In this document: positions 5,801-46,415 of the stretch, piece after piece
How the letters are laid out: every line of letters starts with the position of its first letter
How positions within the stretch are numbered: the first letter of the stretch is position 1
Made by a program: the position numbers and the translations under genes
The notes under the pieces: generated by a model
Told to the model about the DNA's origin: nothing
Seen by the model: only the letters and a program-made list of their open reading frames with translations
The model's database searches: none
Sequence record: OR449013
Reading direction: 5' to 3' (one strand)
From: Escherichia phage Mangalyan
Length of the DNA: 64,000 nt

Positions 5801-7279
5801 TAACACGCCGTCTTCGCGGAAACCTAAATATCTATGGGTTTCAGATCCTTTTGCACCTTTGTGCAGGTGGATTGTCAACCAAGCCTTATTGTCGTTTCTT
5901 ACCTCAGAGTAGATCCTATATCCATGCTCAAGGACACCGTCAGCGCTGTATTTGTCCCCGTTAACAATACCTGATGCTGACTTAACATCAGCAGAACTTT
6001 GAGACAGGTAAAGGTGCCCGAAGGTAGGGGAGTTTCTAGACCCGAGACCGATGTGCGATCTAAAGGTATCATCGTTACGAGGTCTGACCATTGGCTGCCA
6101 TGCAGTCCACTGGTTTGTGTTGGCCTGATAGGTTCTCAAATACCAAACATCCACGTTAGAGAATGGATAGTATTCCTGACGACAACCTGTACCGCCGTTA
6201 GCATTGTTCTGCCAAACAATCAAGTGACCAGCACCAGAACCTGCAGGGTAACCATTTGCCTCAGTTGCATAAGCAGTCATCGGCTGGTAGTATACACCAT
6301 CCTGATTACCAGTCAAGTTATTGATATTGAAATTTGACTCAAGAGCTGCACGTTGCTTATAGAAAGCCCCTAAGTTAATGCGTGCACCTGCGGCATCTCT
6401 GGCCCCCGTACCGCCTTGCTCTATAGCAAGAGGCTGCCACGAGGCTGTTTGTTGGTTCCACATGCCCCAACGGCCTGTTGCGTCAAGCTGCAAGTACCCT
6501 GCCGTGTTTAAATCATCTCCAGCACGGATAACTGTTCTTGTTGGGTTGTTTGCCTCCAGGCGTTTAAATTCATCACGAAGTGCTATTCTTTTTGTTGTTG
6601 CTACACCGTTGGTTACTGCGATGGTATACATGGCTCCGGATGTAGCGCCACGGAAAATACCATCAACAGTTGTAGTATCACGACGAGATACCACACCGTT
6701 CAGAAATTTTTCACCAGCTGCTACAGAAGGGTAGTTGGTGGTTCTTCCCTCTTCAATAACTGCAGGACCCACAAAGTTATCAAGGTGAATAACATCACCT
6801 ACAGTGTGCACCGTACCAAAATCTACACGCTGTGCAAGTGCTTTAGCATCGTTAGCTGTCTGAACAGTAACATCCATTACATCCTGGACAGACTGCCCTT
6901 CGGCTGTCATGATCATAGATGCGCCAATGGTAGATTCCAGCTCCTCCCTTAGGGACGGGTCAGTATATACCATCCATGCAGCGTCAGTAATCCCACCATC
7001 GGAGTACGGTGAAGATAGTGCAGGAACAGTGTGTGGAAATTCGCCTTTCCAACGCAGGTAGAGATCTTCCTCTTCGAAATAGGCAAAATCCATTGGGCCG
7101 TTTAACTTACCACCTTCCTTAAAGGAGATTACATGAGAAACAGTCCCATCCACATGGACAACATCGCCAATTTTTACACGACGGGTCAGGTCTGGTTGTT
7201 GAACAACCAGGTAATCATCCTCTGTCACTGCGGTAGTGGCAGGAAGAGATTCAATTCTGACAACTTTAATATCAGCCAT
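2840..7279 (-). CDS. tail fibre / tailspike protein (1479 aa)
   Basis: Very long ORF with AGGAGAAA SD; N-terminal ~100 aa shares a domain with the 222-aa protein at 9914-10582 (DDYLVVQQPDLTRRVKIGDVV vs DDFLVVNQTDGTRKAKIDDVV); Gly/Thr/Asn-rich body typical of fibres. Confidence 0.65.
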   Translation of the reverse strand: MADIKVVRIESLPATTAVTEDDYLVVQQPDLTRRVKIGDVVHVDGTVSHVISFKEGGKLNGPMDFAYFEEEDLYLRWKGEFPHTVPALSSPYSDGGITDAAWMVYTDPSLREELESTIGASMIMTAEGQSVQDVMDVTVQTANDAKALAQRVDFGTVHTVGDVIHLDNFVGPAVIEEGRTTNYPSVAAGEKFLNGVVSRRDTTTVDGIFRGATSGAMYTIAVTNGVATTKRIALRDEFKRLEANNPTRTVIRAGDDLNTAGYLQLDATGRWGMWNQQTASWQPLAIEQGGTGARDAAGARINLGAFYKQRAALESNFNINNLTGNQDGVYYQPMTAYATEANGYPAGSGAGHLIVWQNNANGGTGCRQEYYPFSNVDVWYLRTYQANTNQWTAWQPMVRPRNDDTFRSHIGLGSRNSPTFGHLYLSQSSADVKSASGIVNGDKYSADGVLEHGYRIYSEVRNDNKAWLTIHLHKGAKGSETHRYLGFREDGVLDCPKYMQVGDLTGQLTNWGLGEWIRSSGAERGFWGSKKAAKMVIWDGEMDESGNGTLEWGVYNNRKAKWEPLPQAAGGTGATTLADAQNLFKVPIAAGVKDFLTLPRTAGMEDGKYYPIIVRTDPYYAHSTGTDITIVTRSSSGNDPMNCATLQCHYRTGGWTDRGDSFYGVVNFYQNEKALLGMVAPTRGKQEYVAFYAEARAFPVSIYASRNVVEVFTREQDYQVGSVTNNQDGVKFVAPLQSADLNLAILGDNNTNTRPIVDFKGTSGFYTGGGTQWHYIGSAERYAVMSKMNMPKVELWADGLDYLCYGSPRKALFSNAGFQCASDGTEDLTNGTFTSKCGNGAGLKGQAEFRSTPEAGQVIVRDVVGTAHRFYNFNKDGTFSAPGGFVCHTGADWNNQFGNNNPSKIMAGNVNGPEGSMVVGGLSVAFSGNYAFQMAGRLDQLYTRSIEQGNHRAWNKVIQHRGQGLGTNDLNDYKADREGIYHQEANANATAERNYPPGQQMAGTLIVLRNSANEGTGCIQIYKMYLGGTWERYYNNLGSGMAWSPWKRTSFPENTTAPVMPDLWLPLTSNLKPALGEGEMVFSRPSTATYFTKRGVMAVAQANQPRFERDGLLIEGQRTNLMLNSEDPSKWGASQQITVGGTVTNTNGTKGARFTVNTASGVETTALNLATVPATRGADVTGAEKFCTGSIIARGGKANRRLRIRFDMYDGSTTTFQGDAYVNLSTLEVKTTGVAAGRIKVKAERWQTAGPAWIRVVATFEAVSSDRNIGCQFQIAPPESSQHAVGDWVDVAIPQFELGSCESSFIPTGSSPVTRAADLCKFPMTDNLAPRPFTIAATVDANWRGWGKAPNAAPRVIDTEGHQSGAAFIMGFGSATNIAKDGYPYCDIGGSNRRVYEMAKARKLKIGFRIKDDGKTCSFANGLVSTETQSSWEFLAGGAFIRIGGQTATGERHLFGHIKDIRVWNSALTDTQLMMESVE

Positions 7280-33977: not shown

Positions 33978-34532
33978 TTACTCCCTACTGTCAATATCAA
34001 AACTCATTGCAATACGGTATGCCTCCTCTAATGGTAAGAGTCTCCCCCACACATCCCAACCGACATCAAGCTGCCTGCCAAACAACTGTTGTGTGGTTCC
34101 GTGAGCATGACCGAACAGTTGGACTGATCCGTGAGGCTTTCTGTTCCACTTTGCAAACTGGTAATGGCTCATACAGATCAAATTCTTGTTGTGGCGAAGC
34201 TCGTAATAATCTACAACCTCATGACCGAACTCTTTCATAATTCTGACAGTCGTCCTTGTGTCATGGTTGCCACGAACAAGAATAATATGTCCGTTCAACA
34301 TATTTAGAATATCTGGAAGTAAGTTGTTGATATTCTTATCATTAGTGCACGCAATATCTCCCAAGTGGAACACAGTGTCTGCAGGTGACACAACAGAGTT
34401 CCACTTGGCGATGATTCCCGCATTCATACTGTCAAGATTGTGATCATACTGAGATCTGTGTTTTTGACATGAATCAAACTCCATGACCCGCTGATGGAGA
34501 AAGTGTGTGTCGCTTGTTACAAAGTATTTCAT
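33978..34532 (-). CDS. calcineurin-like metallophosphoesterase (putative polynucleotide 3'-phosphatase)
   Basis: ATG at 34532 with GAGGA SD (track ORF starts upstream); motifs SDTHF, GDI, GNHD; starts 7 nt after the kinase stop. Confidence 0.6.
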   Translation of the reverse strand: MKYFVTSDTHFLHQRVMEFDSCQKHRSQYDHNLDSMNAGIIAKWNSVVSPADTVFHLGDIACTNDKNINNLLPDILNMLNGHIILVRGNHDTRTTVRIMKEFGHEVVDYYELRHNKNLICMSHYQFAKWNRKPHGSVQLFGHAHGTTQQLFGRQLDVGWDVWGRLLPLEEAYRIAMSFDIDSRE

Positions 34533-34539
34533 ACATTCC

Positions 34540-34950
34540 TCATTTAAGTTTAATGCAGTTTTTAAGCTGGCGTTCCATACGATCCACAACCTTGTCTGGA
34601 ACATCATGAATGCTTTTATTACCGTGGCGGTTTTCAACCACGATCACGGTATAACTATACCCATGACTGATTGCCATGTCAACATATTCCTGCACATGTT
34701 TTTCTTTTGTAAACGTATTACTTACCACGATACGGTCGTATCCCATACGCATCATATCTTCTACGTTATCTTTGCACCATTTTGCTGCGAGTGTTACTTT
34801 ACTTGCATCCCAGTTGTAATTGCCGTCATCGTCATACCAGAACATGTCGTTCTCAAAATGTGGATACAGACCCTCTAAAGATAGCGCATTTGCCAGTGTT
34901 GATTTGCCAGACCCTGGTAGACCACGCACGATATATAGCATTTTAGACAT
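34540..34950 (-). CDS. polynucleotide 5'-kinase-like P-loop protein
   Basis: ATG at 34950 with GGAGGG SD; P-loop GLPGSGKST resembles the T4 Pnk kinase domain. Confidence 0.6.
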   Translation of the reverse strand: MSKMLYIVRGLPGSGKSTLANALSLEGLYPHFENDMFWYDDDGNYNWDASKVTLAAKWCKDNVEDMMRMGYDRIVVSNTFTKEKHVQEYVDMAISHGYSYTVIVVENRHGNKSIHDVPDKVVDRMERQLKNCIKLK

Positions 34951-34978
34951 AGTGACCCTCCGTTTTAATTTCAACGGT

Positions 34979-35007
34979 AGTATACCTGACTGTTTTGTTA
35001 ATTTCAA
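34979..35007 (-). promoter_or_regulatory. sigma70-like promoter (TTGAAA-17-TATACT) for kinase/phosphatase operon
   Basis: Minus-strand elements in the divergent intergenic region. Confidence 0.45.
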
Positions 35008-35071
35008 GTGTTGACACTAGGTTATTTGTGTGGCAGGATAGACTGACAAAATGACAAATGAGGAACGTATA

Positions 35072-35986
35072 ATGAAGTATTTTAATGCAGACGACCTAGT
35101 TGACAAAGGTCTTGTAACCAGTAGGTATTACCCAGATCTCGGGCTAAAGATCTATAAATATGCCAGAAAAGTATTCTACAACAATCTGTGGCATTTGTCT
35201 CCGCGTTTACTGGAGTGCCGAGGTATTGTTGTTGGCAATGAGGGGAATGTTGTGGCATGGCCTTTCACAAAAGTATTCAACTTAGGAGAAAACTCCACCA
35301 ACCTACCGGACAGTAAACTTGTTACTGCGGTAGAGAAAAAGAACGGATTCCTCGGTGTGGTATCATCTCATAAAGGTGACCTATTGTTCTCAACAACCGG
35401 GTCTCTTGATTCTCCATATTGTAACCTTGCAAAGGAAACCATCCAAGAGCAATGTGGTAATTTAGATCTTATCAAGAAGGTTATGGGCAATGAAAACATG
35501 ACATTCATGTTTGAAATTTGTCACCCTTCAGATCCGCATATTGTTCAAGAAGACCATGGCGCATATTTGATAGGTTGCAGATATAATGATTCTGGAATAA
35601 TGCTACCAGAAGCAGCTTTAGATGGGATTGCCAAATACCTTGGTGCAAAACGTCCTCACACTGTGCGTGAAATTCCGTTCAGCTATGCAAAAGAGTTAGC
35701 TGCAGAAACAAGAGGTGAAGGATATATGATTCGTAAGCCTTACTACCCTTATGATCTGCAGTTGAAGATCAAGTCTCCATACTATCTGGCACGAAAGGCC
35801 GTAATGAGGGGTAAAGCTTGGAAGATTTGGGATGATGATATCTTTAAACGTGTTGACGAAGAGTTTTACGGCATGGTAAACTTCATTCGTAACAACTACA
35901 CAGAGGATGTATGGAACTGCCTCCTGGAGCAGGAACGCCGTGAGATACTTGACTGCTATTTCCACAACGAGGACTATATGCAATGA
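35072..35986 (+). CDS. putative RNA ligase (nucleotidyltransferase)
   Basis: Motif I EKKNGF (K-x-N-G), motif IV EGYMIR, motif V LKIKSP; second ATG 35072 preferred (GAGG SD) over track start 35051. Confidence 0.55.
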   Translation: MKYFNADDLVDKGLVTSRYYPDLGLKIYKYARKVFYNNLWHLSPRLLECRGIVVGNEGNVVAWPFTKVFNLGENSTNLPDSKLVTAVEKKNGFLGVVSSHKGDLLFSTTGSLDSPYCNLAKETIQEQCGNLDLIKKVMGNENMTFMFEICHPSDPHIVQEDHGAYLIGCRYNDSGIMLPEAALDGIAKYLGAKRPHTVREIPFSYAKELAAETRGEGYMIRKPYYPYDLQLKIKSPYYLARKAVMRGKAWKIWDDDIFKRVDEEFYGMVNFIRNNYTEDVWNCLLEQERREILDCYFHNEDYMQ

Positions 35987-36333
35987 AGAAGTTGATTGTG
36001 TGGCTGGATGACTTGAGAGATCCGTCAAATTACGGGCTCCAAGACGCTGTTTGGCTAAAGAATTCCTCCGAGTTTATAGATTTTATTAACGATAATAGAA
36101 AGCTCTACAGACGCGTTTCTGAGTGGCACATGGACAACGACCTTGGAGAGTTGTTCGAAGGGTACGATTGCCTATCTATGTTGGAGGAAAAATTTGTATT
36201 TGGTAAGCCCCCTGTAGTTGACAACGTGAAGATTTTCGTGCATACTTCTAACCCATCAGCGGCTCGTAAATTCATGCTTGCAGCTGACTCGTTTAAAAAG
36301 TTTGGAATAGAGATTAAACAAAACATCTACTGA
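35983..36333 (+). CDS. hypothetical protein coupled to RNA ligase and Sir2-like genes
   Basis: 116-aa ORF whose ATG overlaps the ligase stop. Confidence 0.45.
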   Translation: MKKLIVWLDDLRDPSNYGLQDAVWLKNSSEFIDFINDNRKLYRRVSEWHMDNDLGELFEGYDCLSMLEEKFVFGKPPVVDNVKIFVHTSNPSAARKFMLAADSFKKFGIEIKQNIY

Positions 36334-36341
36334 GGACACTT

Positions 36342-37103
36342 ATGCGACGACTGATTATTATCTCCGGTGCTGGTTTGAGCGCTGAATCTGGTATTCCCAC
36401 TTTCCGATCTGGTAGCACTGCAATGTGGGAGAATTTCAGCATCGATGAGGTGTGCAACATCCACACCTTTGCCAAGAACTACTACAAGGTGCATGACTTT
36501 TACAATGCACGTCGTGTAGCTCTAGGCGGTGTTGAGCCTAACCTTGCACATCTTCGGATCGCTGAGTGGTATTCCCGCTGGTCTGGTCGTGTGATCAACC
36601 TTACCACCAATGTAGATGATTTGCTGGAGCGTGCTGGTGTAAAACATGAAGATATTTTACATGTTCACGGGTATTTGCCAGAAATAGTCTATGAGGACGA
36701 TGAAGGAAGTGACGTCATTAAGGACATTGGATACTCTGAGGTAGATGCAGGAAAGTATACCTGGGTTAAACCTAATGTGGTGTTCTTCGGAGAAGTAGCT
36801 CCGAAGTATACAGACATGTATGACCTGTTGACTTCTCTTACAAGCAATGATATGGTTATCCTTGTAGGGTGTTCCAACACAGTTATCAATTTTAACTGGG
36901 AGCTATTCCCTGCCTGCAATAAGGGCACCAAACTGCTGATCGTTAACAAATACGACTCACAGCATCTAGAGGAGAATGGCATTTCACGTAGTGATATTTA
37001 CCAGTACGAGGATCGCGGCATCCCGGTTTGGTTTAACGGGGCGGTTGACGCTTTCTCTGATAAAACATTCATTGAGACCGTAGAAAACTTTATGGAACTT
37101 TAA
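36342..37103 (+). CDS. Sir2-family NAD-dependent protein (sirtuin-like, lacks Zn-ribbon cysteines)
   Basis: Rossmann motif ISGAGLSAESGIPTFR, TTNVDDL, catalytic HVHG, VVFFGE; no CxxC...CxxC zinc module. Confidence 0.7.
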   Translation: MRRLIIISGAGLSAESGIPTFRSGSTAMWENFSIDEVCNIHTFAKNYYKVHDFYNARRVALGGVEPNLAHLRIAEWYSRWSGRVINLTTNVDDLLERAGVKHEDILHVHGYLPEIVYEDDEGSDVIKDIGYSEVDAGKYTWVKPNVVFFGEVAPKYTDMYDLLTSLTSNDMVILVGCSNTVINFNWELFPACNKGTKLLIVNKYDSQHLEENGISRSDIYQYEDRGIPVWFNGAVDAFSDKTFIETVENFMEL

Positions 37104-37116
37104 AAGGAGACCTTTA

Positions 37117-37830
37117 ATGCTGAATACTAAACTGATCGACAACCTGGAAAAACTGTCTCAGCCTGAAAACTACCTTTGGTCTGCCAACTGGGTGGAAAAC
37201 TGGAACCGTGTGGCAGCTAAAGTGAAAAAATCATACACACCATTCGAATTACAGCTTAGCTTCATTGAGGAAGAGTTCAATGAGGTTTTGGAAGAGCTGG
37301 AGAAAGGTGATGGTGGAGATCACCTGCTAAAAGAGGCCTGCGATCTTCACGTTGTCACAAGTTATGCCGCTTATCTTGTTAATGATAATCACGAAAAGTG
37401 GTCAAACCTGTTTGATAATCCACGAGGTCTTAAGTTCAAGATCGGTGAGTTCTATGATACACTGATCGCTGCGAAAAACACATCCAAGCAAAGAGCGTCA
37501 GCTTACCGCTTAGCGGAGTTGTCAACAGCTTTGCTGTTCCAGCTTCGCGGCGATGTGTGTGGGATGATGCGGAAGGTTCTCAAATCTAATGACAGCAAGT
37601 TTGCACGGATCAACCATCTACGATATTCTCACGGTGCCAGTGCAGATATGTCTACTGAATTGCTCATAGAGTTAGAGATTGAAGATCTTGAGCGTCGTTT
37701 TGGTGGTCGCTACGAAGGTTTCGTTGCTAAAGAGGAGTTCTACAACGGTAATAAAGTTATTATATTCCTTGACAGTAAAGGTAAGATTATGAAGCCTTCG
37801 AGCTTCAAGGATGTAACAGAGTATATTTAA
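37117..37830 (+). CDS. MazG-like nucleoside triphosphate pyrophosphohydrolase domain protein
   Basis: EEEFNEVLEELEKGDGGDHLLKEACDL acidic metal-binding helix pair; extra C-terminal domain of unknown function. Confidence 0.45.
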   Translation: MLNTKLIDNLEKLSQPENYLWSANWVENWNRVAAKVKKSYTPFELQLSFIEEEFNEVLEELEKGDGGDHLLKEACDLHVVTSYAAYLVNDNHEKWSNLFDNPRGLKFKIGEFYDTLIAAKNTSKQRASAYRLAELSTALLFQLRGDVCGMMRKVLKSNDSKFARINHLRYSHGASADMSTELLIELEIEDLERRFGGRYEGFVAKEEFYNGNKVIIFLDSKGKIMKPSSFKDVTEYI

Positions 37831-37836
37831 CAACAT

Positions 37837-37862
37837 AGCCGGGATTACCCGGCTTTACTTAT
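37837..37862 (+). terminator. terminator-like hairpin
   Basis: AGCCGGG-ATTA-CCCGGCT followed by TTTACTTATT. Confidence 0.35.
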
Positions 37863-37892
37863 TATGGAAAGTATGCAGTGAGGTAGTTAGTT

Positions 37893-38201
37893 ATGTACAA
37901 GCATTCCAGAGATCTTGAAAAAGATGCTGTGTTTGGCGACCAGATGAAGGAGCTGATCAAACTTATAGGTAGAATGGAAGATAAGTTTGACACTAAAATC
38001 TACATCGATAGCAAGATCTTCAACCACAAAATATGGACAAATGTGTGTGTTGGGCTACATGGTGATAAAGATATTGTAAATTTGGTTGTAATAAAGTTCA
38101 TAGTGTGGCAGAATAGGACTATACGTTATTCCGATCCACACTTACTTGTTTATCCTATAAAAGACCTACTACAGAAGGAGGACTGCAATGCCGTTATTTA
38201 A
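37893..38201 (+). CDS. hypothetical protein
   Basis: 102-aa ORF. Confidence 0.4.
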   Translation: MYKHSRDLEKDAVFGDQMKELIKLIGRMEDKFDTKIYIDSKIFNHKIWTNVCVGLHGDKDIVNLVVIKFIVWQNRTIRYSDPHLLVYPIKDLLQKEDCNAVI

Positions 38202-38457
38202 TCTTGCTAAACCTGTAGAAGCACACCAGTTTGATGGAAGCTCTTCATCAGTATCTGATCTGCAACGGTGGATTGATACAGGTGTGTTTACATCGTCACC
38301 TGTTCGGACCAGAGATATTCGTCGCATGTGTGAGCTTGTTGAGCCGTTTGGTAACCTTGTCCTGTACCAGGGAGATTGGCTAGTTGACTTTATGGGAGAC
38401 TGGTTGGTAATGAGTAAAGAAGAGATGTTTAAAATTTTTAAGGAAGAGGCCGAGTAA
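38188..38457 (+). CDS. hypothetical protein
   Basis: 89-aa ORF with AGGAGG SD. Confidence 0.4.
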   Translation: MPLFNLAKPVEAHQFDGSSSSVSDLQRWIDTGVFTSSPVRTRDIRRMCELVEPFGNLVLYQGDWLVDFMGDWLVMSKEEMFKIFKEEAE

Positions 38458-39740
38458 TGCATCAAATCAAAACAACACTGTACGCACTGAACAAAGATGG
38501 CAGCTACCAACAGTGGAAAGTATTCACTGATGGCGAAAAGGTTATCGTAGAGTTTGGCAAGCTTGACGGTAAATTGCAGTACAAAGAGACGGTATGCACA
38601 CCTAAGAACGTAGGTCGTGCCAATGAGACTACAGCTGAGCAACAGGCCGAGCTTGAGGCTATCAGCAAGTGGGAAAAACAAGTCCGTCTGGGGTATGTTG
38701 AAAACATGGAAGATTGCGAGCAGGGTGTTGATCTTTTACCCATGCTGGTGCATGACTACCTGAAGCGTGGCAAGGCACTTAAACTACCTTGCTGGATCTT
38801 GCGTAAGTTAGATGGCCTTCGTCTGCTTGTTGTTTTCCAAAATGGTGAGCCTAAATTTATTTCCCGTGGTAATAAGTCCTACCCTATTCAAGGAAAGCTT
38901 TTAGAGCAACTTCGTTCTTTCCATTCTACCACTGGGATTAAACAACTTGATGGGGAACTATACATTCATGGTCTTCCTTTGCAGAAAATAGTGTCTCTTG
39001 CTAAACGGTGGCGCACACAGGAAGAGATTCAGGCCGAGATCGATAAAGACTATGAGGCAGATAAAAAACGCCGTCATGCCGCAATTAAGTCCGGCTTATC
39101 AACATACAAAAACTTCAACAAGGTAGATATTCCTGTCGATGTTGAGCCTGTTCGTGATGATTTGCGTTACGGTGGGTACTGTAGCTACGATCTGGAGTAT
39201 CACATTTTTGATATTCCTAGCGACAAGGTGTGGTGGGATCCCGAAACAGAGTCTGGACGCTGCAAGGATCTTATGGATGCAGAGGATACCGTTACCACTC
39301 TGATGCTTGACCATATCAAGGTTGTTGACGCAGAGCTTGCGTACACAGTTGATCATTGCGAAGAATCTGTTGGTATATTCATGTCCGAAGGATATGAAGG
39401 TACCATTATGCGTAACTTCTGTGGTAAATATGAGTACGGTCAGAGAACATCTGAAGCATTGAAATGGAAAAAGTTCAACGACGCAGAGGTGAAAGTTATT
39501 GACGTTGAGAAAGATAAGAATGATGAAGGTGTTCTTATCTGTGTTGACAAGGAAGGTATTGTTGTTAAAATGAAGATGAAAGGTACGCACGAGGAGCGTA
39601 GCTATGACAGAATGCAGGAAATGATCGGCAAGTTTGTCACCTTCAAATATCAAGCAAGGACAGAAGACAACAACTACCAATTCCCTGTCGGTATCTGCGT
39701 CCGAAATGTTAACCCAGACACTTGGGAGGTGCTGGAATAA
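38457..39740 (+). CDS. ATP-dependent DNA ligase
   Basis: Motif I LRKLDGLR (KxDG), motif IV EGTIMR, motif V LKWKKF; 427 aa. Confidence 0.7.
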   Translation: MHQIKTTLYALNKDGSYQQWKVFTDGEKVIVEFGKLDGKLQYKETVCTPKNVGRANETTAEQQAELEAISKWEKQVRLGYVENMEDCEQGVDLLPMLVHDYLKRGKALKLPCWILRKLDGLRLLVVFQNGEPKFISRGNKSYPIQGKLLEQLRSFHSTTGIKQLDGELYIHGLPLQKIVSLAKRWRTQEEIQAEIDKDYEADKKRRHAAIKSGLSTYKNFNKVDIPVDVEPVRDDLRYGGYCSYDLEYHIFDIPSDKVWWDPETESGRCKDLMDAEDTVTTLMLDHIKVVDAELAYTVDHCEESVGIFMSEGYEGTIMRNFCGKYEYGQRTSEALKWKKFNDAEVKVIDVEKDKNDEGVLICVDKEGIVVKMKMKGTHEERSYDRMQEMIGKFVTFKYQARTEDNNYQFPVGICVRNVNPDTWEVLE

Positions 39741-40416: not shown

Positions 40417-40623
40417 ATGAAAGACTTTCTGTTGGCAATTTTGTTCATGGCAGCATGTCTGGCCTGTGGTGTCGTGTTTGCAGGTGAAACAGCGTATCTT
40501 GTCGATGTATATCGGGACAATGGTAAACGTATTTGCCTTTATGAGACAAGTCAAGGTGAGCTCTACGAGCTTGTGAAACAAGGCGAGGCTGGATCTTGTC
40601 CTCGCACCCATTTCTTTGAGTGA
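40417..40623 (+). CDS. small secreted/membrane protein next to endolysin (possible lysis accessory)
   Basis: 68-aa ORF with hydrophobic N-terminus FLLAILFMAACLACGVVFAG; AGGAGGG SD. Confidence 0.4.
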   Translation: MKDFLLAILFMAACLACGVVFAGETAYLVDVYRDNGKRICLYETSQGELYELVKQGEAGSCPRTHFFE

Positions 40624-40632
40624 GGAGAATAC

Positions 40633-41097
40633 GTGGAAGACGGACGTTTAATGAAGTCTGAACGCAGGCTTATTGTGCAACTGATCCCAGAAACAGCTTG
40701 GTATAATAACCTCCGAAACGCTGTGAAGAAGAGTGAGTGGGATAAGATCCGCAAGAAGTGCTATAGAGAAGCCAACTACACCTGTGAGGTGTGCGGCGGT
40801 AAAGGCAGCAAACACCCAGTGGAGTGTCATGAACTTTACACTTTCGAAGAGGGAGTGATCCGGCTTGTCGGACTGATAGCGTTGTGCCCAGATTGTCACA
40901 CATCGGTGCATCCTGGGTTAGCAAATATCCGTGGAAAGTATGCTCAGGCAGTTAGTCAGTTAGCTAAGGTGAATAAGATCACCAAGGGTATGGCAGAGGC
41001 CTATTACCGAGACTGCTTTGCAGAGTGGCGTGAGCTTAGTAAAGTTCCAGAATGGAAGACTGACTTTTCGTGGATAGAGGGTTACCTTGATGGCTAA
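40633..41097 (+). CDS. HNH-family nuclease-like protein
   Basis: CEVCGG...ECHE...CPDCH...H zinc/HNH-like arrangement. Confidence 0.4.
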   Translation: MEDGRLMKSERRLIVQLIPETAWYNNLRNAVKKSEWDKIRKKCYREANYTCEVCGGKGSKHPVECHELYTFEEGVIRLVGLIALCPDCHTSVHPGLANIRGKYAQAVSQLAKVNKITKGMAEAYYRDCFAEWRELSKVPEWKTDFSWIEGYLDG

Positions 41098-41380
41098 GAA
41101 ACCTGTAAAAGAGAAATTCGATAAGACAGCTTTTGTATTCGATACACCTCTGGACGATATCATCAGAGGTATGCAAGCCTTGTATCGGAAGGCTGAATCT
41201 GAGCAGTTGTCTGAATCAGAACTTTACTGGCTTGGTTGGTGGGAGTTAAACCTGCCTAAAGCTGAAAGTTCTTGTCTGAGAACTGTTAAAACGTGCGCCC
41301 AAGAAAACGCTGCACTTGGAATCTACCACAAAAGGAAAAGATCAACAAAAAGCTCTCCAAGAAAGACTAAAAAGTCTTGA
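41087..41380 (+). CDS. hypothetical protein
   Basis: 97-aa ORF with basic C-terminus. Confidence 0.35.
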   Translation: MMAKKPVKEKFDKTAFVFDTPLDDIIRGMQALYRKAESEQLSESELYWLGWWELNLPKAESSCLRTVKTCAQENAALGIYHKRKRSTKSSPRKTKKS

Positions 41381-41406
41381 CAAAAGTGTTATTAATCTGA
41401 TATTAT
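41377..41406 (+). promoter_or_regulatory. sigma70-like promoter (TTGACAAA-N-TATTATCGG family)
   Basis: TTGACA 41377-41382, TATTAT 41401-41406, upstream of the 41440 gene. Confidence 0.55.
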
Positions 41407-41439
41407 CGGTCAGATATCTATAAACTAGGAGAACTAGAT

Positions 41440-41748
41440 ATGCTTAAAATTTTTATTATTGAAGATAAAGATATTGTCCAGTTGTATGCAAACGAGAATC
41501 ATAAAGGTATGATTCTGAAGAAGGCAAGCAACCTTCATGAAAACACAATTCAACCTGGCGATGTAATTAAGATCTGTGGTTATATGATACCAGACTCCTT
41601 GATGAAAATAACCCACCACTGGGGGTCTAATCCGTTCCTTTTTGAAAAGTATTGGGATGTTGAGTCACTTATTGCAGAGAGTGATGATGCATTCCATTAC
41701 AGCATCCAACCATCTTGCAGAATAACTAACAGGAGGGTCTTTGAGTAG
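41440..41748 (+). CDS. hypothetical protein
   Basis: 102-aa ORF with AGGAG SD. Confidence 0.4.
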   Translation: MLKIFIIEDKDIVQLYANENHKGMILKKASNLHENTIQPGDVIKICGYMIPDSLMKITHHWGSNPFLFEKYWDVESLIAESDDAFHYSIQPSCRITNRRVFE

Positions 41749-42880
41749 AGAATATCCACTTATTGAGTCCATAGATTGTCTGGCTGATCTTCTTGAACCT
41801 GACGCTATAGTTTATTATGACTTCGATCAGGTTGCATATCAAGCTGCAGCAAGTTGTGAAAAAAGGACAATTGAGGTAACACACAAAGCCTCCGGACGTA
41901 AGAAGATGTTTAAAACACGAACAGAGTTCTGGGGGCGGCAGAAGAACACCGTTGGTGGTTGGTTAAAAGCTGAGAATACCAACCGTGAAGCTGCATGTAA
42001 AAAGGCTGGCAAGGAGTTTATTCCGTGGACACGAGAAGATTTCGATGTCTTGGATATCCAAACCCCAGATCCTGTAGAGAACTGCTTGCACACAATTAAG
42101 TGTAAAGCTAATGCAGTCCTTAATTATCTCGGTATTCCGGAAGATCGGTGCGTTGGGGTGCTGGGAGGCACAGGTAACTTCAGACTAGATCTCCCAATGC
42201 CGGAAAGATATAAAGCCAACCGTAACAATACTCTTCGACCACTGCTGCTTGGAGATGCAAGGCAGTATCTCCAAAAGCAGTATAATGCTCAAGTGATCAA
42301 CGGTATCGAGGCTGACGACTGGTTAGCTATCCAGCAATTTGAAGGTTGGAACCACTACCAAAAAACAGGTAAGTTCAACAAGTTTATTATCTCTATTGAT
42401 AAGGACCAAAGAACACTACCGGGGCTTGTGTTCGATCCCATGCGAAATGATAAGGGAGATTTTGTAAGGGAAACCCCTATGCTGATCGATAACGGTATGG
42501 GTAACATCTTCATGAAGCCTAATGGAGAGGTTGGTGGTTACGGAATGCTGTTCTTCGGATACCAAATGCTGTGTGGTGACTCTGCTGACAACATCAAGCC
42601 GTATCAAGGACTTATCGGTAAGGGTAAGTTCGGGGATGCCTCAGCATTCTACCTACTGTCTCAGTGCAGCACTCCAAAGGAGATGTGGGCGGCTATTATT
42701 GATCAGTACAAGAAGTGGTTCCCGAAAGGTGTTGTTAAGTATACTGACTTCAATGGTATTGATCGTAGAATTTCCGTAGGTCAGTGGATGAGTATAATTT
42801 TTGACTGTTTGTATATGAAGCGAACATTCAATGATCGAACAAAACTTGTTAACGTTCTTAGAAATGTTGGAGCAATTTGA
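41741..42880 (+). CDS. 5'-3' exonuclease / flap endonuclease-like protein
   Basis: GIEADDWLA matches the G-x-EADD motif of FEN/Pol I 5'-nucleases. Confidence 0.55.
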   Translation: MSREYPLIESIDCLADLLEPDAIVYYDFDQVAYQAAASCEKRTIEVTHKASGRKKMFKTRTEFWGRQKNTVGGWLKAENTNREAACKKAGKEFIPWTREDFDVLDIQTPDPVENCLHTIKCKANAVLNYLGIPEDRCVGVLGGTGNFRLDLPMPERYKANRNNTLRPLLLGDARQYLQKQYNAQVINGIEADDWLAIQQFEGWNHYQKTGKFNKFIISIDKDQRTLPGLVFDPMRNDKGDFVRETPMLIDNGMGNIFMKPNGEVGGYGMLFFGYQMLCGDSADNIKPYQGLIGKGKFGDASAFYLLSQCSTPKEMWAAIIDQYKKWFPKGVVKYTDFNGIDRRISVGQWMSIIFDCLYMKRTFNDRTKLVNVLRNVGAI

Positions 42881-43212
42881 TGACTAAAAATTCTGTAGAT
42901 AATGCAATTATGGAAGCTGTTTTTGAGGATGATCATACAACAGGGACCATTAAAACAAAAAATACATTTATTGTTGCCACAGGTATGTGGCGGTTGTATG
43001 AAGATGACACTATTTCATACATCCTGTACACAGATGATTACGCAGATGACCGTGTATGGTCTGCTGTTTTAAAAGAGGATTGTGAGTTGATTGAGGGCGA
43101 GCGGTTATGCATGTTCACCAGTGTGGAAACAGATGTTAAGCTTTGCTCTCTCGTCTTGTTCAAAGATAAGGCTTATGCTCCTGATGAAGGAGAGGAGGAT
43201 GAGGAAGCATGA
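42877..43212 (+). CDS. hypothetical acidic protein
   Basis: 111-aa ORF. Confidence 0.4.
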   Translation: MMTKNSVDNAIMEAVFEDDHTTGTIKTKNTFIVATGMWRLYEDDTISYILYTDDYADDRVWSAVLKEDCELIEGERLCMFTSVETDVKLCSLVLFKDKAYAPDEGEEDEEA

Positions 43213-43838
43213 GAGAGCGTCTATTATCCATAGACCAGTCGTTGACACACACAGCTTGCGTTGTATGGGACGATGGAAAGCCTGTTCATAAGGTTGTGTT
43301 ACGAACTCAAAGCTCATCTGCAAAAGAGAAGAAACCAGGGACGGTTTCTTTTGCAACAGCTGCTGAGCGTATTGACTGGATCTGCAAACAGGTCAGATAT
43401 TATATCCACACGCATCACGTTGACACCGTGGTTATGGAAGGGCTTTCCTTTGGATCACGCGGGGATGCCACACGTGAACTGGCTGGGTTGTTTTACGGTC
43501 TTGAAATTATGCTTTGGGATGCCTTAGCTGATTGTGAAAATGACGGCCTGTTTAAGGTCCACACAGTGACACCAACAACTGCCAAAAAGTTTGCTCGTAG
43601 TCATCTTCCTGAAGAACTTGCTTTTGAGGAGAAGAAAAAGCTTGACAAAAAGACAGGTAAAGAGCATACTGTGAAGAAACCTGTTACAATGGATAAAAAG
43701 TTGATGGTTAAGGCCTGCGAAGTATCTGAACCTGGGTTCCTAGACGGGATCAATTTGGTACAAGGTAAGGCCGATCTCGCAGATGCTTATTGGATAGGCA
43801 GGGCTCATCTGGAGGGATTATCGCAAAGCGTAAAATAA
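43209..43838 (+). CDS. RuvC-like Holliday junction resolvase
   Basis: N-terminal LSIDQSL...CVVWDDG and C-terminal ADLADAYWIG resemble RuvC-fold catalytic motifs. Confidence 0.55.
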   Translation: MRERLLSIDQSLTHTACVVWDDGKPVHKVVLRTQSSSAKEKKPGTVSFATAAERIDWICKQVRYYIHTHHVDTVVMEGLSFGSRGDATRELAGLFYGLEIMLWDALADCENDGLFKVHTVTPTTAKKFARSHLPEELAFEEKKKLDKKTGKEHTVKKPVTMDKKLMVKACEVSEPGFLDGINLVQGKADLADAYWIGRAHLEGLSQSVK

Positions 43839-44395
43839 GAAAGAAAGCTGTCAAAGCCCCAGTTCATAACGGGTGGTTAAAAGATTCTAAGGACATAGCC
43901 AACTTTCGAAAAGAATTGTCAGAGGAGCAGGATGGTCTTGATCCGATCTTGTGCGAGCCACTTCGTAAGCCTTGTTTAGATCATGATCATCTGACTGGTC
44001 GTTGCAGGGGTGTTTTGTCTCAATGCACTAATACCTTTGAGGGGTATGTGCTTAAATACTGGATGAAATACTGTAACGAGTATACAGATTGCAGTTTATC
44101 AGAGGCGTTGCGCCGGATGGCTGACTATTTGGAGAAAGACTACAGCGACTTCCCGCTCCACAAAAACTACAGAGATGATATGACAAAGTTCTTGAGGAGA
44201 TGCTCTAAAGCTACGATTATTGCACGAGCAGAATCAGATCTCAATCTTGTCATTAATCCAGAGTGCACCAAGCATGAGGCTATTGAGCTCTACATGCAGG
44301 AGTTTATAAAGAAAACTGAGGAGAGAGATTTCTATGGGGATGAAAAAGGTATTCAATCCTTGCGACTCAGTCCTGATCAGGATGAAATACCGTAA
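43790..44395 (+). CDS. endonuclease VII-like (HNH) protein
   Basis: CLDHDHLTGRCRGVLSQCTN matches the Endonuclease_7 zinc/HNH signature; start uncertain (overlaps upstream gene). Confidence 0.55.
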   Translation: MDRQGSSGGIIAKRKIRKKAVKAPVHNGWLKDSKDIANFRKELSEEQDGLDPILCEPLRKPCLDHDHLTGRCRGVLSQCTNTFEGYVLKYWMKYCNEYTDCSLSEALRRMADYLEKDYSDFPLHKNYRDDMTKFLRRCSKATIIARAESDLNLVINPECTKHEAIELYMQEFIKKTEERDFYGDEKGIQSLRLSPDQDEIP

Positions 44396-44555
44396 CTGGA
44401 AAGGTGTTGTTGCAGATCGCTGCGTTACTGAGCCTAATTTATGGTTTGGCTCTACAGAGTATCATAAAGAAGAGCAGTGGTTGATGCGTGCCTTCGATGT
44501 AGACAAGGGCGAATATCGTGACTTCGCTTTAAAAGACATTCTTCAGTTTTACTAA
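44334..44555 (+). CDS. hypothetical protein
   Basis: 73-aa ORF with GAGGAGAG SD. Confidence 0.35.
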   Translation: MGMKKVFNPCDSVLIRMKYRNWKGVVADRCVTEPNLWFGSTEYHKEEQWLMRAFDVDKGEYRDFALKDILQFY

Positions 44556-44567
44556 GGAATCTTAACG

Positions 44568-45551
44568 ATGATGACAAAGTTAACTCTTGAGCAAATTTTA
44601 ACACTAAAGCAACAAGGATACACTAATAGACAAATTGCTCGTGAATTTTTAGGCCGTGAGTCACGTGAGAGCTGGATCCGACTACAGCTTAAACGTGCAC
44701 AAGAGAATATGTCAGAGATTGTAGGAGAAGCAACGGAGCGCTTCCTTGAAGAGCACAAAGGTGCTAAAGTTTGGGTGTATGATACAGAGACATCCCCAAC
44801 AAACGGCTGGTTCTTTGGGCACTATAAGACCAACATTCAAACCTGTGGTATTGAAGTTATGCCCTATATGCTAACTTTCGCAGGTAAGTGGTTAGACAGC
44901 TCTAGTGTGGTTGACTGCGCTCTTCCAGATTACAAAATGTGGGATGAGGATATTCACAATGATCTCGAATTGATTCAGGATTTGTGGTATTATCTGGATA
45001 AATGCGATGTCGCAGTAGCCCACAATTCAGGTTTTGACTGCGGGTGGGCCAACCAACGATTTGCATTTCACGGGTTGCCTCCAACAAGCCCCTACAAAGA
45101 GGTTGACACCCTTAAAATGATCAAGAAGGCATTCCGTTTGAATGCAAACACTTTAGAGTATGCATGCAAATACTTCCAACTGGCCCGACAGAAACTGATT
45201 GACCACACATTTGAAATGTGGATCAAGTGTGTCCATGGCGATCTTGAGGCATTTAAACAGATGCGGGAGTATAATGTTGGTGATATCCTGTCTCTGGAAG
45301 GCTTGTATTTGCTGGCTCGCCCGTTTGCTAAGCAGCACCCAAACATGTCATTGTACTACCAGGACGAGGAGCCAAAGGTTCGTTGCCCACGCTGTGGTGG
45401 AGAACACCTTCACGAGGAAGAAGCTTTGGCGTATACTCAGCTGAGTGCATTTAAAACATACCGCTGCGAAGGTTGTGGATCTGTTGTTCGTGATCGTAAC
45501 AACATCCGTACCAGAGAAGAGATGAAAAACACCCTGATTCAGATAATCTAA
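44568..45551 (+). CDS. DnaQ-like 3'-5' exonuclease with N-terminal HTH and C-terminal zinc ribbon
   Basis: Exo motifs VYDTETS, HNSGFD, YNVGD; HTH-like TNRQIAREF; CPRCGG...CEGCG. Confidence 0.5.
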   Translation: MMTKLTLEQILTLKQQGYTNRQIAREFLGRESRESWIRLQLKRAQENMSEIVGEATERFLEEHKGAKVWVYDTETSPTNGWFFGHYKTNIQTCGIEVMPYMLTFAGKWLDSSSVVDCALPDYKMWDEDIHNDLELIQDLWYYLDKCDVAVAHNSGFDCGWANQRFAFHGLPPTSPYKEVDTLKMIKKAFRLNANTLEYACKYFQLARQKLIDHTFEMWIKCVHGDLEAFKQMREYNVGDILSLEGLYLLARPFAKQHPNMSLYYQDEEPKVRCPRCGGEHLHEEEALAYTQLSAFKTYRCEGCGSVVRDRNNIRTREEMKNTLIQII

Positions 45552-45558
45552 CAAGTAG

Positions 45559-45587
45559 AGGGAGGCTTGCGCCTCCCTTTTCCTTTT
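45559..45587 (+). terminator. rho-independent terminator
   Basis: AGGGAGGC-TTGC-GCCTCCCT hairpin followed by TTTTCCTTTT. Confidence 0.6.
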
Positions 45588-45596
45588 GGAGGCACT

Positions 45597-46415
45597 TTGA
45601 GCAAGAAAGAGTCTAACGACAAGTATTACACAAACCCAGGGTATGCAGAATATCTTGTTGGTAAAGTAAAAGATAAGTATGGGAATTGTGCATACGTTGA
45701 GCCTTCTGCTGGAAGAGGTTCTTTTTCAAAACTATTTTCAGAGATACTGTCGTACGATTTAGTACCAGATCCTGAATTTGAAGGACCAACACCGTGCATT
45801 CAGGCAAACTTCTTGGAGATGCACCCCAAGGCAGATGTCTTCATAGGTAACCCACCATTTGGCAAGAATTCATCTTTAGCTTGCAAATTCTTTAACCATT
45901 GTGCATCATTGCTAGAGCTTGGCGGGGCTATAGCCTTCATCTTGCCACGGACATTTGAAAAAATATTTTTTTCAAACAAACTGGACATGTCTATGCACCT
46001 TGTCTACAGCGAAAGGTGCCCTAAGAACTCGTTTTTACTTAATGGCAAACCTTATGACGTGCCATGTGTTTTCCAAATTTGGGAGAAAAAGGCGTGCAAT
46101 AGGGATCCTGTAGAGATTGGAGAGAATAAGTTATTTTCTTTTAGCACACCGGATGACTACGACTTCTGTGTAAGACGTGTTGGGTATAACGCTGGAAAAG
46201 TATTGGGTGATGATGATCCAAAATCTGAAGAATCTACATATTTCATAAAATCTTTAGTTGACGGTGTTGACAGAGTGTTTGCTGAATGCTATTCTTCTTT
46301 TCAAGAAGAAGCAGGTAAGACTGCTGGAATGAAGAGTATAGGCAAGAAAGAACTACAATACATTTTGGAGACCCGGTATGATCAAAAGCATAGACTTGAC
46401 CAAAGAACTTGCTGA
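45597..46415 (+). CDS. N6-adenine DNA methyltransferase
   Basis: Motif I EPSAGRGSF and motif IV NPPF; TTG start at 45597 after GGAGG preferred over track start inside the terminator hairpin. Confidence 0.6.
   Translation: MSKKESNDKYYTNPGYAEYLVGKVKDKYGNCAYVEPSAGRGSFSKLFSEILSYDLVPDPEFEGPTPCIQANFLEMHPKADVFIGNPPFGKNSSLACKFFNHCASLLELGGAIAFILPRTFEKIFFSNKLDMSMHLVYSERCPKNSFLLNGKPYDVPCVFQIWEKKACNRDPVEIGENKLFSFSTPDDYDFCVRRVGYNAGKVLGDDDPKSEESTYFIKSLVDGVDRVFAECYSSFQEEAGKTAGMKSIGKKELQYILETRYDQKHRLDQRTC

What the first reader, a model, noticed from the sequence alone, without database searches (positions are those of the whole stretch)
40633..45551. Dense cluster of nucleases of different folds
Within 5 kb there are an HNH-like protein, a FEN-type 5'-nuclease, a RuvC-like resolvase, an endonuclease VII-like protein and a DnaQ-like exonuclease with an added HTH and zinc ribbon. 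This combination points to host DNA degradation plus recombination-dependent replication and packaging; the DnaQ architecture is unusual for a proofreading subunit and may indicate a sequence-targeted exonuclease.
Basis: partly seen in the sequence, partly recalled or inferred. Interest (0 to 1): 0.35.

Follow-up and report, generated by a model that had tools for sequence, protein, structure and literature searches.

The report
Conserved nuclease gene block of rV5-like phage
The five nuclease-type genes are really there, but they form the ordinary, already annotated DNA-processing block of a well-known E. coli phage genus (Vequintavirus, rV5-like); the one open point is what its widespread but untested stand-alone 3'-5' exonuclease does.

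Summary
The window is a Vequintavirus (rV5-like myovirus). The flagged 4.9 kb is 99.9% identical to Escherichia phage PDX and at least 90% identical in 120 phage records.

All five nuclease-family calls hold:
- HNH: 40633-41097.
- T7 gp6/T5 D15-type FEN 5'-3' exonuclease: 41741-42880.
- RuvC-like protein: 43209-43838.
- Endonuclease VII: 43790-44395.
- DEDD 3'-5' exonuclease with an N-terminal HTH and a C-terminal zinc ribbon: 44568-45551.

One correction. The exonuclease is not epsilon/DnaQ-type (DEDDh). It is DEDDy, and its fold is closest to family-B polymerase proofreading domains (YprB/PF13482-like).

Its architecture is not rare. About 4,700 50%-identity clusters and 1,526 of 50,697 phage records carry it. 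The zinc ribbon is in all of the top relatives and the HTH in about half.

The gene order HNH-FEN-RuvC-EndoVII-exo is kept in 14 of 18 Vequintavirinae-like contigs. A FEN-EndoVII-exo triad recurs in phiKMV-like podoviruses.

Proofreading is unlikely, because the phage's T7-like PolA keeps its own exonuclease motifs.

The likely job is processing of replication and recombination intermediates plus recycling of host DNA. This is inferred by analogy with T7, T4 and LUZ19 and was not shown here.

Verdict: a real but ordinary and already known feature, of low interest.

The parts
40633..41097 (+). HNH (His-Me finger) endonuclease-family protein, 154 aa
   Evidence: phrog_5200 E=4.5e-72. Weak matches to the HNH domains of a group II intron maturase, IscB and ZorE. 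C51, C54, H66, C85, C88, H89 and H93 are invariant in 17 homologues. Sits directly upstream of FEN in most Vequintavirinae-like loci.
41087..41380 (+). 97-aa protein of unknown function
   Evidence: phrog_6208, unknown function; no Pfam hit. The 'transposase-like' label in FFH2 has no support.
41377..41406 (+). sigma-70-like promoter match (TTGACA-18-TATTAT, TG-extended) in the only intergenic gap of the block
   Evidence: Consensus match only; the total number of such sites in the region equals the shuffle expectation.
41440..41748 (+). 102-aa protein of unknown function
   Evidence: phrog_14449 carries the label 'transposase', but there is no Pfam support.
41741..42880 (+). FEN-family 5'-3' exonuclease / flap endonuclease, T7 gp6-like, 379 aa
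   Evidence: D27, D29, E190, D192, D193, D220, D222, D280 and D283 are invariant.
42877..43212 (+). 111-aa acidic protein of unknown function, conserved between FEN and RuvC in many relatives
   Evidence: phrog_7583; synteny.
43209..43838 (+). RuvC-like (RNase H fold) junction-resolvase-family protein, 209 aa. Compared with short RuvC-like relatives it has an insertion of about 30 aa.
43790..44395 (+). Endonuclease VII-family protein, 201 aa, with a basic N-terminal extension. The ORF overlaps the RuvC-like gene by 49 nt.
44334..44555 (+). 73-aa protein (weak WYL/SH3-like hits), conserved between EndoVII and the exonuclease
   Evidence: phrog_3715 E=2.6e-26; sub-threshold Pfam WYL_2/WYL hits; synteny.
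44568..44753 (+). Exonuclease gene, N-terminal helix-turn-helix domain plus long linker helix (aa 1-62)
   Evidence: AF2 helices 7-15, 20-28 and 31-62. HTH_38/HTH_7 hits are weak in the query but clearer in relatives: HTH_23 in 18, HTH_38 in 10, HTH_7 best E=2.7e-9. Detected in 75 of 156 relatives.
44763..45341 (+). Exonuclease gene, DEDDy 3'-5' exonuclease core (aa 66-258)
   Evidence: ExoI D72/E74, ExoII N153/D157, ExoIII Y235/D239. Top Foldseek matches are PolB exonuclease domains. PF13482 is hit by 88 of 98 relatives.
45363..45503 (+). Exonuclease gene, C-terminal zinc ribbon (aa 266-312; C273, C276, C300, C303)
   Evidence: Present in 156 of 156 top relatives.
45557..45580 (+). Terminator-like GC-rich hairpin followed by a T-run, directly after the exonuclease stop codon

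Best explanation
What it is. This is the conserved DNA-processing gene block of a Vequintavirus (rV5-like) phage. The genes are co-directional and tightly packed, and many overlap. The block probably ends at the hairpin at 45557-45580. It encodes five enzymes that together can cut, resolve and trim any branched or nicked DNA.

The five enzymes:
- an HNH nickase/endonuclease;
- a T7 gp6-type FEN 5'-3' exonuclease;
- a RuvC-fold junction resolvase;
- a T4 gp49-type endonuclease VII;
- a stand-alone DEDDy 3'-5' exonuclease, built like a PolB proofreading domain, with a zinc ribbon and an HTH.

Most likely mechanism (inferred):
- The endonucleases nick and debranch DNA. Targets would be replication and recombination intermediates before headful packaging, and the host chromosome.
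- The two exonucleases of opposite polarity remove primers and flaps and digest the fragments to mononucleotides.
- Those nucleotides would feed the nucleotide-metabolism genes immediately downstream: an NT5C-like nucleotidase, ThyX and the ribonucleotide reductases.
- The exonuclease probably acts on free or flapped 3' ends rather than as the polymerase's proofreader. Its zinc ribbon, and where present its HTH, would serve as nucleic-acid or partner-binding modules.

Shown versus inferred. Shown: family membership, conserved catalytic residues, conserved gene order, and identity with known phages. Inferred: all activities, all substrates and the division of labour.
For: - Identity with known phages and their annotations.
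- Family and motif evidence for each enzyme.
- High-confidence model of the exonuclease and its fold matches.
- Gene order: EndoVII lies directly upstream of the exonuclease in 17 of 18 Vequintavirinae-like IMG/VR loci, and all five genes are in order in 14 of them. FEN-EndoVII-exo adjacency also occurs in Autographiviridae.
- In phiKMV-like LUZ19 the host genome is degraded as phage replication starts. The authors attribute this to the adjacent 5'-3' exonuclease and endonuclease VII (PMC3604761).
- The T7 record notes that gp6 is needed for recombination and host DNA degradation.
- Downstream neighbours are nucleotide-metabolism genes.
- The phage PolA has its own exonuclease motifs.
Against: - There is no experimental data for any of these proteins in Vequintavirus. 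I found no report of host DNA degradation by rV5-like phages.
- No recombinase is annotated in the related AlexBoehm genome.
- Two junction-resolvase-type genes side by side look redundant, and I cannot say which does what.
- Outside two phage groups the exonuclease has unrelated neighbours, so its function need not be tied to FEN or EndoVII.
- Direct Pfam hits for the HNH, FEN and RuvC proteins of this window are absent or below threshold. Those assignments rest on PHROGs, profiles and motifs.
Confidence: 0.6

Rival explanations
1. The exonuclease is the proofreading ('DNA polymerase exonuclease') subunit of the phage replicase, as PHROGs, RefSeq and mycobacteriophage annotations label it.
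For: - Label of phrog_403 and of many records.
- Weak sequence similarity to Pol III epsilon and PolC exonuclease domains.
- The fold matches polymerase proofreading domains.
- In phiKMV-like phages the gene lies 3-4 genes downstream of the DNA polymerase.
- DnaQ-like proteins of cluster K mycobacteriophages are highly toxic when overexpressed, which the authors read as replisome interference (PMC11797047). I did not check whether those proteins belong to this family.
Against: - The Vequintavirus PolA aligns with the T7 gp5 exonuclease domain and keeps the ExoI, ExoII and ExoIII carboxylates.
- The gene is about 50 kb from the polymerase gene.
- The enzyme is DEDDy, not epsilon-type DEDDh.
- Homologues sit beside portal, terminase, holin or ribonucleotide reductase genes, or after the lysis cassette of a temperate mycobacteriophage.
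Confidence: 0.1
2. The cluster is a chance pile-up of selfish or homing nucleases (HNH and EndoVII-type genes are common mobile endonucleases), with no joint function.
For: - AlexBoehm annotates the HNH gene as a 'putative homing endonuclease'.
- Vequintaviruses do carry intron-borne homing endonucleases elsewhere (PMC3606486).
Against: - The whole 4.9 kb is present in 119 of 120 matching records at 80% or more coverage.
- HNH, FEN, RuvC, EndoVII and the exonuclease keep their order in relatives only 43-52% identical. This is the opposite of the sporadic distribution of homing genes.
- None of them interrupts a host gene.
Confidence: 0.07
3. One or more of the nucleases, especially the HTH-exonuclease-zinc ribbon protein or the HNH, is an anti-defence or inter-phage competition factor. 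It would destroy host immune nucleic acids, signalling molecules or competitor DNA rather than serve phage DNA metabolism.
For: - The exonuclease family is very widespread and its genomic context varies, as is typical of accessory genes.
- Weak similarity to Cas-associated DEDDh and ZorE HNH models in PADLOC.
- An adenine methyltransferase gene lies directly downstream.
Against: - The PADLOC hits are domain-level and weak.
- In this lineage the gene is fixed inside a core DNA-metabolism block.
- No target is suggested by any result.
Confidence: 0.1

Closest known systems
Annotated Vequintavirus genomes (rV5/V5, PDX, FFH2, AlexBoehm Bas56)
   Same: The DNA is 98.9-99.9% identical over the whole region. 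The same genes are annotated as HNH or homing endonuclease, 5'-exonuclease, EndoVII packaging/recombination endonuclease and DnaQ-like 3'-5' exonuclease.
   Different: The RuvC-like gene is still 'hypothetical' in those records. None of the proteins has been studied experimentally.
T7 gp6 exonuclease and T5 D15 flap endonuclease (FEN family)
   Same: The profile aligns with gp6 (97.3%) and with D15. All carboxylate clusters and the YKxNR lysine motif are conserved.
   Different: The protein is 379 aa against about 290-300 aa. It has an insertion of about 60 aa after the first acidic cluster. The query itself gives no direct Pfam hit.
T4 gp49 endonuclease VII
   Same: Pfam PF02945 is above threshold. 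D-H-x-H, N and E line up with T4 D40, H41, H43, N62 and E65. The C-terminal helical region also aligns.
   Different: There is a basic N-terminal extension. The second CxxC of T4 (C58/C61) reads S77...C79 here, with an extra C72, so the zinc ligands may be arranged differently.
Bacterial and phage RuvC (PF02075)
   Same: D-E-D-D tetrad in the expected order. Distant homologues of 157-161 aa hit PF02075.
   Different: The profile match to a solved RuvC is only marginal (E=0.38). There is an insertion of about 30 aa (residues ~133-162). Sequence specificity and dimerisation are unknown.
phiKMV-group 'gp22-gp23-gp24' region (5'-3' exonuclease, endonuclease VII, YprB-like exonuclease; e.g. LUZ19, LKA1)
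   Same: The same three families occur in the same order. The LKA1 YprB-like protein is the best structural match (TM 0.74).
   Different: No RuvC-like or HNH gene there. The block sits right after the DNA polymerase there, but here it is about 50 kb away and next to ligase, lysis and nucleotide-metabolism genes.
E. coli DnaQ (Pol III epsilon) and T4 DexA (DEDDh exonucleases)
   Same: DEDD superfamily; the ExoII region aligns with epsilon.
   Different: ExoIII is Y-x3-D, not H-x4-D. Pfam RNase_T is below threshold. Structurally the protein is closer to PolB exonuclease domains. It also has added HTH and zinc-ribbon domains. DexA is named from my own knowledge and was not tested here.

Membership tests
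HNH / His-Me finger endonuclease (PF01844) | Pfam model above the gathering score | tested here: not met
   13.8 bits against a 21.4 cut-off. phrog_5200 'HNH endonuclease' matches at E=4.5e-72.
HNH / His-Me finger endonuclease (PF01844) | Catalytic His in a beta-beta-alpha-metal motif framed by two CxxC zinc pairs | tested here: met
   C51-x2-C54, E64-C-H66, C85-x2-C88-H89 and H93 are invariant in 17 homologues. They align with the HNH domain of the group II intron maturase 6me0. The central Asn is not evident.
FEN / 5'-3' exonuclease (PF02739; T7 gp6, T5 D15) | Sequence-model membership | tested here: inconclusive
   The query has no Pfam hit. 10 of 24 homologues hit PF02739. hhalign against T7 gp6 gives 97.3%. 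The profile against T5 D15 gives E=0.017.
FEN / 5'-3' exonuclease (PF02739; T7 gp6, T5 D15) | Conserved acidic clusters and Lys of the two-metal site (DxD, YKxNR, EADD, DxD, GDxxDN) | tested here: met
   D27, D29, Y157, K158, R161, E190, D192, D193, D220, D222, D280 and D283 are invariant in 24 sequences.
RuvC Holliday-junction resolvase (PF02075) | Sequence-model membership | tested here: inconclusive
   The query has no Pfam hit. 4 of 21 homologues hit PF02075. phrog_159 matches at E=4.5e-39. The PDB RuvC 7w8d matches at E=0.38.
RuvC Holliday-junction resolvase (PF02075) | D-E-D-D catalytic tetrad in RNase H-fold order | tested here: met
   D9, E77, D189 and D192.
RuvC Holliday-junction resolvase (PF02075) | Dimeric, symmetric cleavage of four-way junctions | not testable with these tools
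   Needs biochemistry.
Endonuclease VII (PF02945; T4 gp49) | Pfam model above the gathering score | tested here: met
   31.6 bits against 23.6. T4 endo VII 1e7d matches at E=3.6e-4.
Endonuclease VII (PF02945; T4 gp49) | His-Me catalytic residues (T4 D40, H41, H43, N62) | tested here: met
   D64, H65, H67 and N81 are invariant in 25 homologues.
Endonuclease VII (PF02945; T4 gp49) | Cys4 zinc site (T4 C23, C26, C58, C61) | tested here: inconclusive
   The position of T4 C58 is S77. C55, C62, C72 and C79 are present but not conserved at 95% or more.
DnaQ / Pol III epsilon-type DEDDh exonuclease (PF00929) | Pfam model above threshold and an ExoIII H-x4-D motif | tested here: not met
   21.8 bits against 24. 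ExoIII is Y235-x3-D239, invariant in 98 sequences.
PolB-exonuclease-like / YprB DEDDy exonuclease (PF13482, PF10108) | DEDDy motifs and a PolB-exonuclease-like fold | tested here: met
   D72, E74, D157, Y235 and D239. 88 of 98 relatives hit PF13482 and 53 hit PF10108, although the query itself is not listed for either. The top Foldseek PDB matches are Pol epsilon, HSV, Pol alpha and Pol II exonuclease domains.
Polymerase proofreading subunit | The cognate polymerase lacks its own exonuclease and the gene is associated with it | tested here: not met
   The PolA N-terminus aligns with the T7 gp5 exonuclease domain with D/E/D/D kept. The genes are about 50 kb apart.

The most novel reading that the evidence does not exclude
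The HTH-DEDDy-zinc ribbon protein may represent a very large phage family that is mislabelled as a 'DNA polymerase exonuclease subunit'. The family has about 4,700 clusters at 50% identity and occurs in about 3% of sequenced phages. On this reading it is a stand-alone PolB-type 3'-5' exonuclease with its own targeting modules. It would act on specific DNA ends or structures, for example host-DNA recycling together with FEN and EndoVII, genome-end processing, or anti-defence. No member appears to have been characterised biochemically.
Probability: 0.2. Interest if true: 0.5.

Novelty: already known. Interest (0 to 1): 0.2.

Why it matters
For this window it matters little. The block is a standard, already annotated part of rV5-like phages.

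Three small gains:
- The RuvC-like gene, 'hypothetical' in the reference annotations seen here, can be named.
- The 'DnaQ-like / polymerase exonuclease subunit' label is probably wrong in kind. The enzyme is DEDDy and PolB-exonuclease-like, and the phage polymerase already has its own exonuclease.
- The FEN-EndoVII-exonuclease triad shared by rV5-like myoviruses and phiKMV-like podoviruses marks a testable three-enzyme unit for host-DNA recycling or concatemer processing. Vequintaviruses are used in phage therapy and biocontrol, so this is of some practical interest.

Tried and rejected
- Direct phmmer against PDB for the FEN and RuvC-like proteins found nothing. Profiles were needed.
- The first AF2 model, built from an 8-sequence alignment, was poor (pLDDT 61) and was not used. 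A 98-sequence alignment gave pLDDT 93.
The 8-sequence alignment worked.
- The paper search for YprB/PF13482 was swamped by human RNASEH2 papers. The search for DEDDy, bacteriophage and zinc ribbon found nothing relevant. The search for Vequintavirinae and host DNA degradation found nothing on this genus.
- I considered a programmed -1 frameshift fusing RuvC-like to EndoVII, because EndoVII is in the -1 frame, overlaps by 49 nt, and has only a TTG start with no obvious Shine-Dalgarno. I saw no X XXY YYZ slippery heptamer in the overlap and did not pursue it.
- PADLOC gave only weak domain-level hits.


Full report
**Source of the window.** Megablast of 40633-45551 against 50,697 phage records found 120 matching records. 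In 119 of them the match covers at least 80% of the query. The best is Escherichia phage PDX at 99.9% identity. The others include V5/rV5-type phages, FFH2 and AlexBoehm (Bas56), all Vequintavirus. The region is annotated in those records. The finding therefore lies in a well-known phage genus, the rV5-like myoviruses of about 135-140 kb.

**What is there.** On the + strand there is an uninterrupted run of eleven ORFs:
- 40633-41097, 154 aa
- 41087-41380, 97 aa
- 41440-41748, 102 aa
- 41741-42880, 379 aa
- 42877-43212, 111 aa
- 43209-43838, 209 aa
- 43790-44395, 201 aa
- 44334-44555, 73 aa
- 44568-45551, 327 aa
- 45567/45597-46415, an N6-adenine methyltransferase

Most neighbouring ORFs overlap by 4-62 nt. 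The only gap, 41381-41439, holds a good sigma-70-like match. A GC-rich hairpin with a T-run follows the exonuclease stop codon at 45557-45580. Upstream lie the ATP-dependent DNA ligase, the endolysin and a 68-aa signal-peptide or lipoprotein-like ORF. Downstream lie a P-loop protein, an NT5C-type nucleotidase, ThyX and the ribonucleotide reductases.

**The five nuclease calls.**
- *HNH.* phrog_5200 matches at E=4.5e-72. Pfam HNH is below threshold. Both CxxC pairs, the E-C-H66-E motif and C-H89-x3-H93 are invariant in 17 distinct homologues. They align with the HNH domain of a group II intron maturase.
- *FEN.* phrog_107 matches at E=1.6e-71. The query has no direct Pfam hit, but 10 of 24 homologues hit PF02739. 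The family profile aligns with T7 gp6 (hhalign 97.3%, E=1.9e-11). It also aligns with T5 D15 and the Taq 5'-nuclease domain at E about 0.02, with YKxNR, EADD, DKD and GDxxDN in register. All acidic clusters are invariant.
- *RuvC-like.* phrog_159 matches at E=4.5e-39. Short distant homologues hit PF02075. The D9/E77/D189/D192 tetrad is conserved. The match to a solved RuvC is only marginal. This lineage carries an insertion of about 30 aa.
- *Endonuclease VII.* PF02945 is above its gathering score. T4 gp49 structures match at E=3.6e-4 with D-H-D-H, N and E aligned. D64, H65, H67 and N81 are invariant in 25 homologues. The cysteine pattern differs from T4.
- *Exonuclease.* phrog_403 matches at E=5.4e-110. 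ExoI D72/E74, ExoII N153/D157 and ExoIII Y235-x3-D239 are invariant, as are four ribbon cysteines.

**The 'DnaQ-like' exonuclease.** The ExoIII tyrosine makes it DEDDy, not epsilon-type DEDDh. Pfam RNase_T is below threshold and covers only the ExoII region.
- A first model from 8 sequences was poor. A model from a 98-sequence alignment reached mean pLDDT 93.
- The best solved-structure matches are the exonuclease domains of family-B polymerases (Pol epsilon, HSV-1, Pol alpha, ASFV, E. coli Pol II). DnaQ, PolC and RNase T rank lower.
- The best viral match is the YprB-like protein of phiKMV-like phage LKA1, with TM 0.74.
- Of 98 relatives, 88 hit PF13482, 53 hit PF10108 (a predicted PolB-related exonuclease) and 30 hit PF03104.

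The architecture is common:
- An exhaustive profile search found 4,722 representatives of 50%-identity clusters at E≤0.001, and 1,798 at E≤1e-30.
- tblastn found the protein in 1,526 phage records, including mycobacteriophages, Pseudomonas, Vibrio ICP1 and Xanthomonas phages.
- The zinc ribbon is in 156 of 156 top relatives. The N-terminal HTH, of transposase/resolvase type, is in 75 of 156.

**Is it a proofreading subunit?** Probably not.
- The phage DNA polymerase was read from the AlexBoehm genome, because it lies outside this window. It is a T7-like family-A enzyme. Its N-terminus aligns with the T7 gp5 exonuclease domain: DFEASGLL against DIEANALL, HNCFSYD against HNGHKYD, and the ExoIII Asp.
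- The exonuclease gene is about 50 kb away from the polymerase gene.
- In other phages it sits beside portal, terminase, holin or ribonucleotide reductase genes. In a temperate mycobacteriophage it follows the lysis cassette.

**Is the clustering meaningful?** I scanned 63 IMG/VR loci and several GenBank loci with HMMs built from my alignments.
- EndoVII lies directly upstream of the exonuclease in 17 of 18 Vequintavirinae-like loci, whose exonuclease is 43-98% identical to the one here. All five genes occur in the order HNH-FEN-(p111)-RuvC-EndoVII-p73-exonuclease in 14 of those loci.
- In four loci (L010-L013) there is no HNH hit within the 7 kb fetched upstream. One locus (L016) is rearranged.
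- In most loci with the full order the HNH gene directly abuts FEN. This argues against it being a homing endonuclease.
- In Autographiviridae (SaviPeeda, a Phikmvvirus, Pradovirus Xc10 and three metagenomic loci) the order is FEN, then EndoVII, then the exonuclease, without RuvC or HNH.
- The FEN-EndoVII-exonuclease triad is therefore a recurrent unit in two unrelated phage groups.

**Function.** Nothing here measures activity. The reasoning is by analogy.
- By analogy, T7 gp6 is required for recombination and host DNA degradation (record note).
- From my own knowledge, T4 gp49 debranches DNA for packaging.
- In phiKMV-like LUZ19, qPCR showed host genome loss at the onset of phage replication. 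The authors assigned this to the adjacent 5'-3' exonuclease and endonuclease VII (PMC3604761).
- The location next to ligase and nucleotide-salvage or synthesis genes fits both DNA-intermediate processing and host-DNA recycling.
- The rV5 genome paper only lists an exo- and an endodeoxyribonuclease among the nucleotide-metabolism genes (PMC3606486).
- I found no evidence on host DNA breakdown in this genus.
- No recombinase is annotated in the complete AlexBoehm record. Recombination-dependent replication therefore remains unsupported.

**Verdict.** The feature is real but ordinary and already annotated in public genomes. The residual interest lies in the large, functionally untested exonuclease family and in the side-by-side RuvC-type and EndoVII-type resolvases.

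Noticed in passing
window 45557-45640: The mechanical ORF start of the methyltransferase (TTG 45567) lies inside the terminator-like hairpin at 45557-45580. An in-frame TTG at 45597, preceded by GGAGG, fits the start annotated in AlexBoehm and FFH2. PADLOC type II MTase models match this protein at E=2.4e-33.
   Followed up: partly
window 40417-40623: A 68-aa ORF with a hydrophobic N-terminus ending in cysteines (MKDFLLAILFMAACLACG...), possibly a lipoprotein or signal peptide. It lies between the endolysin and the HNH gene. It is annotated as hypothetical in FFH2 and is not annotated in AlexBoehm. It has no Pfam hit.
   Followed up: no
window 43790-43838: The EndoVII ORF overlaps the RuvC-like gene by 49 nt in the -1 frame. 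Its only canonical start is a TTG with no evident Shine-Dalgarno; a GGAGGG lies inside the ORF at 43811-43816. I saw no slippery heptamer. How translation starts is unclear.
   Followed up: partly
window 41087-41748: FFH2 and PHROGs label the 97-aa and 102-aa proteins 'transposase(-like)'. Neither has any Pfam or NCBIfam support. The labels look like annotation noise.
   Followed up: partly
L011-L013 about 5932-6987 (IMG/VR relatives); window 44334-44555: In three relatives the homologue of the 73-aa protein is the C-terminal part of a stop-to-stop ORF of about 350 aa, in the same position between EndoVII and the exonuclease. phrog_3715 has a 251-position profile, of which the window protein covers only 121-189. 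The window gene may be a remnant or a domain of a larger protein.
   Followed up: no
phage records MG0656xx: Twenty GenBank records named 'Campylobacter phage' (host C. jejuni) are among the matches, and those listed are 98.5-99% identical to this E. coli Vequintavirus region. Several are fragmentary (35-59 kb). The host labels look doubtful, possibly through contamination or mislabelling.
   Followed up: no
window about 34000-39740 (AlexBoehm bas56_0203-0211): Upstream of the block lies a nucleic-acid repair set: polynucleotide kinase and a phosphoesterase on the opposite strand, then RNA ligase, a Sir2-like protein and an ATP-dependent DNA ligase. GC skew changes sign near 35 kb, where the transcription direction switches.
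   Followed up: no
L005 22353-25972 (AlexBoehm, outside the window): The phage PolA gene is split by an intron-like insert that carries a homing endonuclease ORF. The position that aligns with the T7 gp5 ExoIII tyrosine is Arg in the pairwise alignment, although all four carboxylates are kept.
   Followed up: partly
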